A stretch of 64,000 nucleotides of DNA from Escherichia phage L14: the sequence record OQ992558.1. One strand, given 5' to 3'. How positions within the stretch are numbered: the first letter of the stretch is position 1; each line of letters begins with the position of its first letter. This document shows, piece by piece, positions 7,511 through 8,265 of the stretch. A program made the translations under genes and the position numbers. Under the pieces are notes generated by a model. The model saw only the letters and a list, made by a program, of their open reading frames with translations, searched no databases and was not told where the DNA came from.

Positions 7511-7540
7511 ATACTATCACAAAGGAACCATACTGTAAAC
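7511..7540 (-). promoter_or_regulatory. T4-type early promoter (GTTTAC -35, TAGTAT -10)
   Basis: minus strand reads GTTTAC-18nt-TAGTAT just upstream of ORF 7151..7483. Confidence 0.5.
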
Positions 7541-7560
7541 AACTTTGTGCAATCTTTGGA

Positions 7561-7588
7561 AAATAAAAAAGGACTCCCGAAGGAGTCC
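7561..7588 (-). terminator. rho-independent terminator, GGACUCC-UUCG-GGAGUCC stem-loop plus U-run
   Basis: perfect 7-bp stem with UUCG tetraloop followed by UUUUUUAUUU on minus strand, directly after ORF 7594..7770. Confidence 0.7.
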
Positions 7589-7593
7589 TCAAC

Positions 7594-7770
7594 TTATGCT
7601 TTCTGCTTACCAAAACGAGAAGCATCATCTCGAAGAACCGCACGTGCTCGGCGCATGATCTTCTCAACAGTTTGATTGATACGAGAGTTCGACCCACGCT
7701 TGTAGCCAGCGCGTTTAGAATCACCAACTTTCTTTTCAACTGCTTTCTTTGCTTTAACTTGTTTTGCCAT
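7594..7770 (-). CDS. small basic protein (58 aa, 30.9 position)
   Basis: ORF track gives 72 aa; I chose internal ATG (MAKQVKAKK...); lysine/arginine rich; ends just before a strong terminator. Confidence 0.5.
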   Translation of the reverse strand: MAKQVKAKKAVEKKVGDSKRAGYKRGSNSRINQTVEKIMRRARAVLRDDASRFGKQKA

Positions 7771-8016
7771 TATAAATTCTCTTTTAAATGAAAATGCAGG
7801 ACTTATTGGCATTGCCTGCGCAAGCCCTCAAGGGGAACATAGGTTTTTGGATATTTAACGACCAGGATAACCATAAACCCGTCATCATTCACATTCAAGA
7901 GGTACACCGTAAAAACTGCCGGGGTCTTAAAACTATAATGATTCGCAAATCATTAATCAGACAATTTCGACGGCTCCTCGATTTTAGCTCACACTAAGGC
8001 AGTGAATCTCCATAAA

Positions 8017-8265
8017 TTACTTCAATGTTACCACAAAGTGACGAACTGCTTTTCGTGCAGCAGAAGCCAGAGGCTTAGCATATTTAAGTTCATCTTTTTC
8101 CTGAAGCTCAGCAGCTAGTGCAGTTTGAGCAGGATTCAGATGTTTGAAATAACGCAGGATTTCAAGAGCTTCGGCTTCAACATCAATAGATGCGCCATAG
8201 TTTTCGTGACCATTATTCCATGCGTTTCGTTGCAGTTCAAGAGCGTGTTGTAATTGTTTAATCAT
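8017..8265 (-). CDS. rIII: lysis inhibition accessory protein rIII
   Basis: 82 aa, size and position between 31 and the 30.x block match T4 rIII; sequence recognised from memory. Confidence 0.75.
   Translation of the reverse strand: MIKQLQHALELQRNAWNNGHENYGASIDVEAEALEILRYFKHLNPAQTALAAELQEKDELKYAKPLASAARKAVRHFVVTLK

What the first reader, a model, noticed from the sequence alone, without database searches (positions are those of the whole stretch)
7813..8016. About 200-nt non-coding, relatively GC-rich island between rIII and the small basic-protein gene
Gene spacing in this window is usually under 60 nt, but here about 200 nt lack a convincing ORF on the coding strand. The segment is noticeably more G+C-rich than its surroundings and contains several complementary stretches, including a GCAGG ... 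CCUGC hairpin just upstream of the next gene's RBS. It could be a structured 5-prime leader, a small RNA, or a remnant of a deleted gene.
Basis: seen in the sequence. Interest (0 to 1): 0.45.

Follow-up and report, generated by a model that had tools for sequence, protein, structure and literature searches.

The report
Structured RNA array with antitoxin mimic
The unannotated 246-base gap between phage T4's rIII and 30.9 genes is neither junk nor a dead gene: it is a chain of conserved, separately folding RNA modules, one being a diverged copy of the ToxI antitoxin RNA that restrains a bacterial anti-phage toxin, so it is probably a counter-defence and/or regulatory RNA.

Summary
The window is a T4-type phage (99% identical to T4). 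The gap is real and larger than reported: 7771..8016, 246 nt, minus strand, unannotated in the T4 reference. No ORF in it is conserved, even among near-identical relatives. It is not richer in G+C than its flanking genes.

In 41 related loci the rIII-30.9 gap (120-420 nt) is a mosaic of small RNA modules that are gained, lost and re-ordered. The window carries A-B-E-F1-F2.
- E (7883..7840) is an H-type pseudoknot present in every gap-bearing locus. Covariation is strong: 94% of cells paired against 70% shuffled, and 10 of 13 pairs have compensatory changes. It is single-copy in the window.
- B is a three-way junction with 40 G·U against 3 A·C pairs, which places the fold on the sense-strand RNA.
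- A (8011..7982) is a diverged orthologue of a module that in relatives is 85-91% identical to ToxI, the RNA antitoxin of the ToxIN abortive-infection system, and to phage ΦTE's "pseudo-ToxI".
It is followed by a U-rich tract and the 30.9 RBS.

Nothing matches Rfam 15. Function is inferred: trans-acting decoy RNAs and/or a cis-acting leader for 30.9.

The parts
7982..8011 (-). Module A: diverged ToxI-like (pseudo-ToxI) pseudoknot, GGAGAUUCACUGCCUUAGUGUGAGCUAAAA. S1 is GGAG/UGCC, with one A·G mismatch. S2 is CAC/GUG. The 3' tail ends in AAAAU, which matches the ToxN AA^AU motif.
   Evidence: It sits at the same position (first module after the rIII stop, followed by module B) as module A of relatives. 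Those copies are 85-91% identical to the 36-nt ToxI repeat. With the L014-type copy as query it is the unique best site in the window (score 42 against 28 for the next). Direct ToxI similarity is only 25/34 and ties with chance sites. Pseudoknot pairs: 96% of cells paired, 3 of 7 pairs compensatory, and the T4-type copies break pair 8/17.
7895..7981 (-). Module B: ~87-nt three-way junction. P1 is GAGG/CCUC, P2 is GCCGU/ACGGU, P3 is GAAAUUGUC/GGCAGUUUU. The two arms are AAUGAUU-UGCG-AAUCAUU and GUU-UUAA-GAC.
   Evidence: It is the centroid of the single-sequence fold. RNAalifold on 13 distinct sequences gives 25 pairs, 5 of them with compensatory changes. It has 40 G·U against 3 A·C/C·A pairs, so the fold is on the sense (minus-strand) RNA. 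It is 95.7% identical to L013, although rIII is only 84%.
7840..7883 (-). Module E: H-type pseudoknot, universal in the locus family. S1 is 7883-7878 with 7866-7860. S2 is 7875-7869 with 7845-7840. The invariant L1 is UU. The conserved A-rich L3 is GUUAAAUAUCCAAA (7859-7846). A conserved UGAUGA lies just upstream (7890-7885).
   Evidence: On 31 distinct sequences, 94.3% of cells are paired against 69.5% in shuffles, and 36-52% when partners are slid. Ten of 13 pairs have compensatory changes (the alignment was hand-fitted). A covariance model finds one copy in the 64-kb window (48.3 bits, E 1e-8; the next is 17 bits). It also finds held-out loci L126, L102 and L100. The module is present in 38 of 38 extracted gaps and in 3 further loci.
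7821..7838 (-). Module F1: conserved motif GU(U/A)CCC-loop-GGG(C/A)CUUG, a short C/G hairpin with conserved flanks.
   Evidence: It is single-copy in the window. There is an exact pattern match in 30 loci, always inside this gap, and close variants in most others. It is absent from L102. Its position relative to E differs between phages: before E in L021, L023, L029 and L041, after E in T4.
7796..7819 (-). An alternative inner hairpin GGC-AAU-GCC is possible.
   Evidence: Seen directly in the sequence. The stem covaries (GAACUGG/CCAGUUC in L018 and L033) with a conserved loop ..GCCAAUAAG... Every locus has a G+C-rich hairpin at this place, but its sequence is often unrelated.
7771..7795 (-). 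U-rich tract AUUUUCAUUU (7795-7786), Shine-Dalgarno region AAAAGAGAA (7785-7777) and spacer up to the 30.9 start codon (7770-7768).
   Evidence: Seen directly in the sequence. A hairpin followed by a U-rich tract and then the RBS recurs in all loci. The terminator scan did not call it, because its loop is longer than 8 nt.

Best explanation
The gap is a functional non-coding RNA region. It is transcribed on the minus strand as part of the rIII-30.9 message, since no promoter-like site lies inside it. It folds into a chain of autonomous modules (A, B, E, F1, F2). SHOWN: the RNA is under purifying selection; modules B and E, and module A across its family, keep their base pairs through compensatory changes; across T4-like phages the modules behave as cassettes that are gained, lost and re-ordered; module A belongs to the ToxI/pseudo-ToxI family. 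INFERRED: the array works mainly in trans as decoy RNAs that phages use against RNA-binding defence nucleases. Module A would bind ToxN-type endoribonucleases of type III toxin-antitoxin abortive-infection systems, as ΦTE's pseudo-ToxI does. Its AAAAU tail offers a ToxN cleavage site. The universal pseudoknot E and junction B would be analogous ligands, or scaffold and processing elements, for partners not yet known. The terminal hairpin plus U-tract (F2) would define a 3' end or attenuate read-through into 30.9 and set the context of its RBS. This mirrors the repeats-terminator-gene layout of type III loci. Because rIII has early, middle and late promoters, the RNA would be supplied throughout infection, when host toxI decays.
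For: FUNCTIONAL RNA. Covariation supports E, B and A. The G·U to A·C ratio is 40:3 in B. Shared modules are 92-96% identical where rIII is 84% and 30.9 is 70%. No ORF is conserved. CASSETTE BEHAVIOUR. In 41 loci modules A, B, C, D and G are optional and their order varies. TOXI LINK. The recalled 36-nt ToxI repeat is 100% present as tandem copies directly upstream of ToxN/AbiQ toxin genes in pECA1039 and about 75 enterobacterial plasmids. Module A of Klebsiella-type T4-likes hits these at 91-94%. ΦTE's annotated pseudo-ToxI shares its first 25 nt with the L015/L052-type module A. The window's A is the positional orthologue. TRANS ACTION. Single ToxI-like units lie between tRNA genes in a T5-like and a Roskildevirus phage, and after a tRNA in ΦTE. 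These are stable-RNA processing contexts. The whole T4 gap, without 30.9, has been transferred into the tRNA cluster of Justusliebigvirus phages. 30.9 homologues exist without the leader (L035, L123). TIMING. rIII has early, middle and late promoters (PMC9409239). BIOLOGICAL PLAUSIBILITY. T4-like phages are aborted by ToxIN and TenpIN (PMC5449768, PMC3401426). RNA mimicry of ToxI is an established escape route (PMC3475682).
Against: The window's own module A is degraded relative to ToxI. Direct identity is about 25/34 and no better than two chance sites in the window. One S1 pair is broken in all T4-type copies. It is a single copy, whereas ΦTE needs 4-5 repeats and its single wild-type repeat is reported to be inactive (PMC3594212). 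T4-like phages rely on the protein TifA against ToxIN (PMC10853763), which implies that the RNA alone does not protect. The JS98-type phages lack A altogether (L010-L013, L019). Only A has a bacterial counterpart. B, C, E, F and G match nothing in 72,556 plasmids or 5,426 E. coli genomes. No processed small RNA from this region is documented in the papers I could search. The fixed position next to the 30.9 RBS and the co-occurrence with 30.9 fit a cis role equally well.
Confidence: 0.42

Rival explanations
1. A cis-acting leader or intercistronic control region for gene 30.9. Pseudoknot E, together with F1, would be an operator or aptamer. F2 plus the U-tract and the RBS-proximal sequences would be the expression platform, working by attenuation or RBS masking. 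The bound factor could be the small, very basic gp30.9 itself. That would be autogenous control, as with the T4 gene 32 pseudoknot or the E. coli S15 and S4 leaders.
For: The element always lies between the rIII stop and the 30.9 RBS, on the sense strand. E plus a terminal hairpin, U-rich tract and RBS are present in all 41 loci that have both the gap and 30.9. Five distant T4-likes lack both the gap and 30.9. The minimal gaps (L023, 120 nt) reduce to F1-E-hairpin-RBS, an aptamer-plus-platform layout. gp30.9 is a 58-aa lysine/arginine-rich, phage-only protein. Pseudoknot operators are established in T4 (PMC3014915).
Against: Module order is not conserved: F1 lies before or after E, and A before or after E. 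This is unusual for mutually exclusive cis structures. Large optional modules (C is ~140 nt; B is 87 nt) are hard to explain as operators. The leader and 30.9 do not co-evolve: JS98-type phages share near-identical E/F with T4 but only 65% gp30.9 identity, whereas Klebsiella types have 86% gp30.9 identity with a more diverged E. 30.9 homologues exist with no leader (L035, L123). The leader was transferred without 30.9. Module A is homologous to a trans-acting antitoxin.
Confidence: 0.3
2. A structured 3' UTR of rIII, or mRNA processing and stability elements. The modules would protect the rIII or 30.9 message from RNase E, RegB or 3' exonucleases, or direct its cleavage. They would have no ligand of their own.
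For: F2 resembles a weak intrinsic terminator that could end rIII transcripts. GGAG, the RegB motif, occurs in A and B of the window. The neighbouring 30.9-30.8 junction is a known terminator, early promoter and RegB control region (Truncaite 2006, cited in PMC9409239).
Against: GGAG is not conserved in A (GGUG or AGUG in relatives), and in B it is GAGAAG in L033. Simple stabilisers do not need an H-type pseudoknot with an invariant loop sequence, or a ToxI homologue. Conservation of loop sequences in E (L3) and F2 points to specific recognition.
Confidence: 0.15
3. A DNA-level element, such as a promoter, a replication or recombination signal, or a PeSL-type shuffling cassette, rather than an RNA.
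For: The modular shuffling resembles that ascribed to PeSL promoter-terminator cassettes in T4-type genomes (PMC2839356, PMC4122927). L3 of E contains GTTAAATA, two mismatches from the T4 late-promoter box TATAAATA (own knowledge).
Against: There is no promoter-like site in the gap. Compensatory changes keep pairing, not sequence. The strong G·U over A·C asymmetry fits only the sense-strand RNA. The late-promoter-like box is not kept in relatives (GTAAAACA, GTAAAATA).
Confidence: 0.05
4. A remnant of a decayed gene, or one or more small protein-coding ORFs: the 34-aa sense ORFs, as annotated in some records, or the 69-aa antisense ORF.
For: Some GenBank records annotate a 34-aa 'hypothetical protein' here, for example G2540. 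The window has a 69-aa antisense ORF.
Against: These ORFs are broken by 1-nt indels among phages 96-99% identical, and are absent in many relatives. There is no family match. Conservation exceeds that of the neighbouring real genes and follows base pairing.
Confidence: 0.03

Closest known systems
Pseudo-ToxI of Pectobacterium phage ΦTE (Blower et al. 2012, PMC3475682; annotated ncRNA in NC_020201.1)
   Same: It is a phage-encoded, non-coding copy of the ToxI antitoxin unit. Module A of L015/L052-type T4-likes shares its first 25 nt with ΦTE's repeat. It has the same two pseudoknot helices with covariation. It lies in a stable-RNA or untranslated context.
   Different: ΦTE carries 1.5 repeats next to a tRNA and escapes ToxIN only after expansion to 4-5 repeats. 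Here there is one unit embedded in a multi-module array between two protein genes. The window's copy is further diverged (about 74% to ToxI, one helix pair broken) and no activity has been shown.
ToxI, the RNA antitoxin of the type III toxin-antitoxin / abortive-infection system ToxIN (pECA1039 and E. coli, Salmonella and Klebsiella plasmids)
   Same: A 36-nt pseudoknot unit with GGUG/UACC and UGC/GCA helices and a GCUAGAAAU tail holding the ToxN site. The locus layout is RNA units, then a terminator hairpin, then a gene.
   Different: In the bacterial locus the unit is repeated 2-5.5 times in tandem and is followed by toxN. The phage locus has one unit, other unrelated modules, and is followed by a 58-aa basic protein with no similarity to ToxN.
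T4 gene 32 mRNA pseudoknot operator (autogenous translational control; PMC3014915)
   Same: An H-type pseudoknot in a T4 5' untranslated region, followed by A/U-rich sequence and the RBS of the downstream gene.
   Different: There is no sequence similarity and no Rfam match. E lies ~70 nt from the RBS with two further modules between. No binding protein is known. The 2010 T4 review does not mention rIII or 30.9.
PeSL promoter-terminator cassettes of T4-type phages (PMC2839356, PMC4122927)
   Same: Short conserved non-coding cassettes that accompany modular shuffling in T4-type genomes. A PeSL-like terminator plus early promoter lies immediately downstream of 30.9 (7590-7511).
   Different: The gap modules contain no promoter and are defined by RNA base-pair covariation, including pseudoknots. 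They are single-copy and specific to this locus, not dispersed through the genome.
RNA anti-CRISPRs (solitary CRISPR-repeat mimics in phages; recalled from memory, Camara-Wilpert et al. 2023)
   Same: The concept is the same: a phage carries a single copy of a host immune RNA repeat that acts as a decoy. From memory, T4's module A and ToxI itself share UUCACUGCC...GCAGCUA(A)GAAA-like stretches with the type I-F repeat.
   Different: The Cas6f stem (CUGCC/GGCAG) is not kept in module A. No CRISPR-DR family of Rfam matches the gap even at E up to 10. BLAST finds no link to E. coli genomes. I treat this as an untested lead only.

Membership tests
ToxI / pseudo-ToxI (type III antitoxin RNA) | Sequence similarity to the 36-nt ToxI repeat | tested here: inconclusive
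   Relatives' module A is 85-91% identical to ToxI, and BLAST gives 91-94% to toxI plasmids. The window's copy aligns 25/34, a score that ties with two chance sites in the window. Through the L014-type intermediate and its identical position it is clearly orthologous (score 42 against 28 for the next).
ToxI / pseudo-ToxI (type III antitoxin RNA) | Pseudoknot with two short helices (GGUG/UACC and UGC/GCA) kept by compensatory change | tested here: met
   Across 19 sequences 96.2% of cells are paired against 87.5% in shuffles, and 3 of 7 pairs are compensatory. The window keeps S2 through a double change (CAC/GUG), but one S1 pair is broken (A·G), as in all T4-type copies. The helix assignment is my own inference from covariation and was not checked against the crystal structure.
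ToxI / pseudo-ToxI (type III antitoxin RNA) | Tandem repetition (at least ~2 units), so that ToxN can excise complete active units | tested here: not met
   There is one unit per phage locus. ΦTE's single wild-type repeat is reported to be inactive and needs expansion (PMC3594212).
ToxI / pseudo-ToxI (type III antitoxin RNA) | ToxN recognition motif (AA^AU / GAAAU) at both ends of the unit | tested here: inconclusive
   The 3' end has AAAAU (7985-7981). The 5' flank reads GUAAUUUAUGG, with no AAAU. Motifs are taken from PMC10853763 and from my own knowledge of Short et al. 2013.
ToxI / pseudo-ToxI (type III antitoxin RNA) | Binds and neutralises a ToxN-family endoribonuclease | not testable with these tools
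   This needs ToxN toxicity-rescue, binding and phage-plating assays.
Any curated RNA family (Rfam 15: riboswitches, leaders, sRNAs, CRISPR repeats, ribozymes) | Covariance-model match | tested here: not met
   There is no hit in the gap apart from a 17-bit chance match to MtlS, and none in 8 related loci. Caveat: Rfam 15 has no ToxI model, because an authentic toxI array gives no ToxI hit.
Intrinsic (rho-independent) terminator (for F2) | G+C-rich stem-loop immediately followed by a U-run | tested here: inconclusive
   The 5-bp stem GCAGG/CCUGC has a 14-nt loop and is followed by AUUUUCAUUU. The scan does not call it, because its loop limit is 8 nt. A hairpin plus U-rich tract recurs in all loci, but the U-tracts are interrupted. 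No 3'-end data are available.
Autogenous pseudoknot operator (T4 gene 32 / S15 type) | Pseudoknot in the 5' UTR that is bound by the product of the downstream gene | not testable with these tools
   The pseudoknot in the 5' UTR is shown. Binding by gp30.9 is untested. The lack of leader/protein co-variation argues weakly against it.
Protein-coding gene / decayed gene | A conserved reading frame or a protein-family match | tested here: not met
   Frames are broken among close relatives. There is no Pfam or PHROG match.
PeSL promoter-terminator cassette | Early promoter plus stem-loop, with dispersed copies in the genome | tested here: not met
   There is no promoter-like site in the gap. The motifs are single-copy in the window.

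The most novel reading that the evidence does not exclude
The rIII-30.9 gap of T4-like phages is an evolvable 'RNA anti-defence island'. It would be an array of shuffled, independently folding decoy RNAs, each mimicking a different host immune RNA. ToxI is the only one recognised so far. The universal pseudoknot E, junction B and the ~140-nt module C of relatives would be mimics or inhibitors for RNA-regulated defence systems not yet identified. The small basic protein gp30.9 might act as their partner.
Probability: 0.22. Interest if true: 0.88.

Novelty: new variant of a known kind. Interest (0 to 1): 0.68.

Why it matters
T4 is the best-studied virulent phage, yet this 246-nt stretch is blank in its reference annotation. 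It is also absent from the main review of T4 post-transcriptional control.

The analysis shows three things:
- a covariation-proven pseudoknot that is conserved across enterobacterial T4-like genera;
- a cassette-like array of RNA modules, an organisation usually associated with anti-defence protein genes;
- a direct homology link to ToxI, the RNA antitoxin of an abortive-infection system known to act on T4-like phages.

If the modules are decoys, phage RNA mimicry of immune RNAs would be widespread rather than a laboratory curiosity of ΦTE. The unidentified modules would then point to unknown RNA-regulated defence systems. If the region is instead a cis-leader, it would be only the second pseudoknot operator in T4 and would give a first handle on the unknown gene 30.9. 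Either outcome can be tested directly with simple T4 genetics.

Tried and rejected
1) Single-sequence folding statistics for the whole gap were not significant (z = -0.76 and -0.45).
2) Rfam 15 at permissive thresholds on the gap and on 8 relatives gave nothing. A control showed that Rfam lacks ToxI.
3) The promoter and terminator scan found nothing inside the gap.
4) Gap ORFs had no Pfam or PHROG match. gp30.9 had no PDB or Pfam match and only phage homologues.
5) BLAST of the gap and of all modules against E. coli genomes and plasmids matched only module A, which hit toxI.
6) T4's stable RNAs rnaC and rnaD showed no resemblance to the modules when read by eye.
7) The F1 motif scan of IMG/VR gave mostly chance hits outside T4-likes.
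8) A scan of bacterial genomes for the T4-type spacing variant of module A gave one chance hit inside a coding gene.
9) I tried to compare module E with TenpI antitoxins. The supplementary sequences are not held. The tenpIN locus of Y. pseudotuberculosis p153kb could not be found from annotation or tandem-repeat search (the last 3 kb was not fetched).
10) Nine full-text searches for an existing description of this RNA found none. Driukas & Nivinskas 2003 (expression of rIII and 30.9) and Guegler & Laub 2021 are not held.
11) Readings considered and dropped: a C/D-box or k-turn reading of the UGAUGA upstream of E, loop-loop pairing between A and E, and a MotA-box reading of F1. None was consistent across relatives.

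Full report
IDENTITY OF THE WINDOW AND THE OBSERVATION. The 1-kb stretch around the finding is 99% identical to phage T4 and many Tequatrovirus genomes. All genes here are on the minus strand. rIII is 8265..8017 and 30.9 is 7770..7594 (58 aa in the T4 reference). Between them the T4 reference annotates nothing. The true gap is therefore 7771..8016, 246 nt. G+C is 39.4% (42.2% for 7813-8016) against a window mean of 35.4%. But rIII (41.0%) and 30.9 (44.1%) are as rich or richer, so the 'island' is relative to the genome and not to its neighbours. Whole-gap folding energy is unremarkable on both strands. The GCAGG/CCUGC hairpin exists at 7819..7796.

NOT CODING, NOT A RELIC. The two 34-aa sense ORFs and the 69-aa antisense ORF are broken by single-base indels in phages that are 96-99% identical. 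Several relatives have no ORF of 25 aa or more in the gap. None matches Pfam or PHROGs. The DNA is nevertheless strongly conserved. Against a JS98-type phage (L013), the shared gap segments are 95.7% and 91.8% identical. rIII is 84% identical (66% at third codon positions) and 30.9 is 70%. That pattern is the opposite of a decaying gene.

A MODULAR LOCUS. I fetched loci through rIII, through a conserved gap motif and through 30.9. In 41 enterobacterial T4-like loci a gap of 120-420 nt lies between rIII and 30.9. It is a mosaic of recurring short modules whose presence and order vary. T4 and the window have A-B-E-F1-F2. Other phages have F1-E-hairpin (120 nt, L023), E-A-C-F1-F2, C-E-F1-F2, G-E-A-C-F1-F2, and so on. 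Modules C (~140 nt), D (~45 nt) and G are absent from the window. Five more distant T4-likes have neither the gap nor 30.9. Two have a 30.9 homologue with no leader. The motifs are single-copy in the 64-kb window.

MODULE E, A UNIVERSAL PSEUDOKNOT. Every gap contains a ~45-nt element (window 7883..7840). Its two helices cross, giving an H-type pseudoknot. It has an invariant UU between them and a conserved A-rich loop GU(U/A)AAA(U/C)A..(A/G)AAA. I aligned 31 distinct sequences by hand in register with the structure. On that alignment 94.3% of cells form standard pairs, against 69.5% after shuffling and 36-52% when partners are slid. Ten of 13 pairs show changes on both sides, for example UA:17/AU:13 and CG:21/GC:6/UA:4. 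The hand alignment leans towards the structure, but the compensatory substitutions can be seen in the raw sequences. A covariance model finds exactly one copy in the window (48.3 bits; the next is 17 bits). It finds three held-out loci and the transferred copy in phage PD06. It finds nothing in gap-less T4-likes, in T4's tRNA/rnaC/rnaD region, or in ToxI-bearing plasmids and phages.

MODULES B, F1 AND F2. B (7981..7895) folds as a three-way junction. This is the centroid of the single-sequence fold and the RNAalifold consensus of 13 sequences, with five compensatory pairs. It holds 40 G·U pairs but only 3 A·C/C·A pairs, so the fold belongs to the sense-strand RNA. F1 (7838..7821) is a short C/G hairpin with conserved flanks. 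Its stem covaries while its loop (GCCAAUAAG) is kept. In more distant phages it is replaced by unrelated G+C-rich hairpins. In every locus the hairpin is followed by a U-rich tract and the 30.9 RBS. No promoter-like site lies in the gap, so it must be transcribed from upstream. rIII has early, middle and late promoters (PMC9409239).

MODULE A IS A TOXI RELATIVE. The sequence of module A in relatives (AGGUGAUUCGCUACCUUAGUGCGGCUAGAAAA) recalled the 36-nt ToxI antitoxin repeat of the ToxIN abortive-infection system, so I tested that memory. The recalled repeat is present, 100% identical and in tandem, in pECA1039 and about 75 small plasmids of E. coli, Salmonella and Klebsiella. It lies directly upstream of genes annotated 'type III toxin-antitoxin system ToxN/AbiQ family toxin'. 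A Klebsiella-type phage gap hits those plasmids, and E. coli plasmids, only with its module A, at 91-94% identity. The reverse search finds 215 phage records. They include about 170 Klebsiella T4-likes at this locus and ΦTE, whose match is annotated 'pseudo-ToxI'. ΦTE's repeat shares its first 25 nt with module A of the L015/L052 type. Across ToxI, ΦTE, other phages and the T4-like copies, two crossing helices are kept in 96% of cells with three compensatory pairs. The window's copy (8011..7982) is more diverged. It is 25/34 to ToxI, a score that ties with two chance sites in the window. With the phage intermediate as query it stands out (42 against 28) and it occupies the orthologous position. 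It keeps helix 2 through a double change but has one broken pair in helix 1. It ends in AAAAU, a ToxN-type site. Rfam missed all of this because it has no ToxI model.

CONTEXT THAT BEARS ON MECHANISM. Single ToxI-like units in other phages sit exactly between tRNA genes (a T5-like phage and a Roskildevirus), after a tRNA (ΦTE), or before a terminator (a Kuravirus). These are places where a short stable RNA would be released by tRNA processing. The complete T4-type gap (97-98% identical), joined to the last 84 nt of rIII but without 30.9, has been inserted into the tRNA cluster of Justusliebigvirus phages. The insertion used a 13-nt homology with the 5' flank and first 8 bases of tRNA-Gln. Related phages show the empty site. 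These facts favour RNAs that work on their own. Other facts favour a cis role: the fixed place next to the 30.9 RBS, the co-occurrence with 30.9, and the aptamer-plus-platform look of the minimal gaps. Published work shows that T4-like phages are aborted by ToxIN and TenpIN (PMC5449768, PMC3401426). It also shows that ΦTE escapes by expanding pseudo-ToxI, a single repeat being inactive (PMC3475682, PMC3594212), and that T4-likes use the protein TifA against ToxN (PMC10853763). None of these papers, nor the T4 post-transcriptional review (PMC3014915), mentions an RNA element between rIII and 30.9.

VERDICT. It is shown that the gap is a conserved, sense-strand, structured non-coding RNA region made of cassette-like modules. 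The function is inferred. I rate trans-acting decoy RNAs against RNA-binding defence nucleases at about 0.4. A cis-acting leader for 30.9 is about 0.3, and mRNA end or stability elements about 0.15. The remaining probability goes to DNA-level or coding readings. The kind (phage mimic of an immune RNA) is known from ΦTE. The multi-module array, the universal pseudoknot and their presence in T4 itself appear to be new.

Noticed in passing
L043/L045 (Escherichia phage PD06, MH816848, locus L043 1293-1636); empty site in L044 (VivaForever): The whole T4-type rIII-30.9 gap (97-98% identical) is inserted in the tRNA cluster of Justusliebigvirus phages, between tRNA-Gly and tRNA-Gln. It is a circularly permuted piece: the gap up to the 30.9 ATGG is fused in frame to the last 27 codons of rIII. 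It is flanked by a 13-nt direct repeat, TTTATTGGAGATT, that is also the 5' flank and first 8 bases of tRNA-Gln. Seventeen phage records cover at least 80% of the query that spans the insertion.
   Followed up: partly
Related loci, e.g. L013 gap 95-235, L022, L026-L032, L072, L078, L126; absent from the window: Module C is a ~140-nt G+C-rich RNA with covarying helices, a conserved GAAA tetraloop hairpin and an apparent loop-loop (kissing) pairing. It occurs once per genome at this locus in 404 phage records. It has no Rfam match and no counterpart in plasmids or E. coli genomes. It looks like a new complex-fold RNA class.
   Followed up: partly
L133 401-439 (Salmonella T5-like Kenya-K36), L135 401-439 (Erwinia phage IT22), L134 (Kuravirus XT18), L132 (ΦTE): Single ToxI-like units, 91-97% identical to ToxI, lie exactly between two tRNA genes in unrelated phage families, or just upstream of a terminator. 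This suggests that solitary antitoxin-mimic RNAs released by tRNA processing are widespread in phages (215 records).
   Followed up: partly
L130 840-1120 (authentic toxI array of pECA1039): Rfam 15 gives no ToxI-family hit on the genuine toxI array. 'No Rfam match' therefore cannot exclude type III antitoxin RNAs.
   Followed up: yes
window 8011..7982 and the ToxI repeat: From memory, the type I-F CRISPR repeat (GUUCACUGCCGUAUAGGCAGCUAAGAAA) shares UUCACUGCC and AGCUAA.AA with T4's module A, and GCAGCUA(A)GAAA with ToxI itself. The Cas6f stem is not kept in module A, and no Rfam CRISPR-DR model hits the gap. This may be coincidence.
   Followed up: no
window 7590..7511 (minus strand): A strong intrinsic terminator follows 30.9 directly (7590-7569, 9-bp stem plus U-run). 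A sigma-70/T4-early-like promoter follows it (7539-7511) ahead of 30.8. This is a PeSL-like terminator-promoter cassette. The terminator gives a spurious 31-bit match to the Rhizobiales sRNA Atu_C8.
   Followed up: partly
window 7594..7812 and public records: The start of gene 30.9 is annotated inconsistently: 58, 72, 97 or 102 aa. The longer forms run through the F2 hairpin and are not conserved. Several RAST-annotated genomes label this 58-aa protein '1,4-alpha-glucan branching enzyme, GH-13-type', which is clearly an annotation error.
   Followed up: partly
Related loci: L004, L006, L009-L012 (between B and E); L021, L029, L041, L052 (inside the terminal hairpin); L026, L100, L102, L126: Two further small modules occur. 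D is GCGUCAG(A/C)AAAAGGUUA(U/G)CUGUCUAAG, with a CAGA/UCUG to CAGC/GCUG compensatory change. G is CCCAC-stem-UGUACG-stem-(G/A)UAAC, with a covarying stem. The same module can sit at different places in the array.
   Followed up: no
L034, L036, L037, L039, L040; L035; L123: More distant T4-like phages have no gap: rIII is followed at once by an unrelated ~105-aa gene. Two phages carry a short 30.9 homologue with no structured leader. One sits directly after rIII. The other sits after gene 31 with its own early-type promoter.
   Followed up: partly
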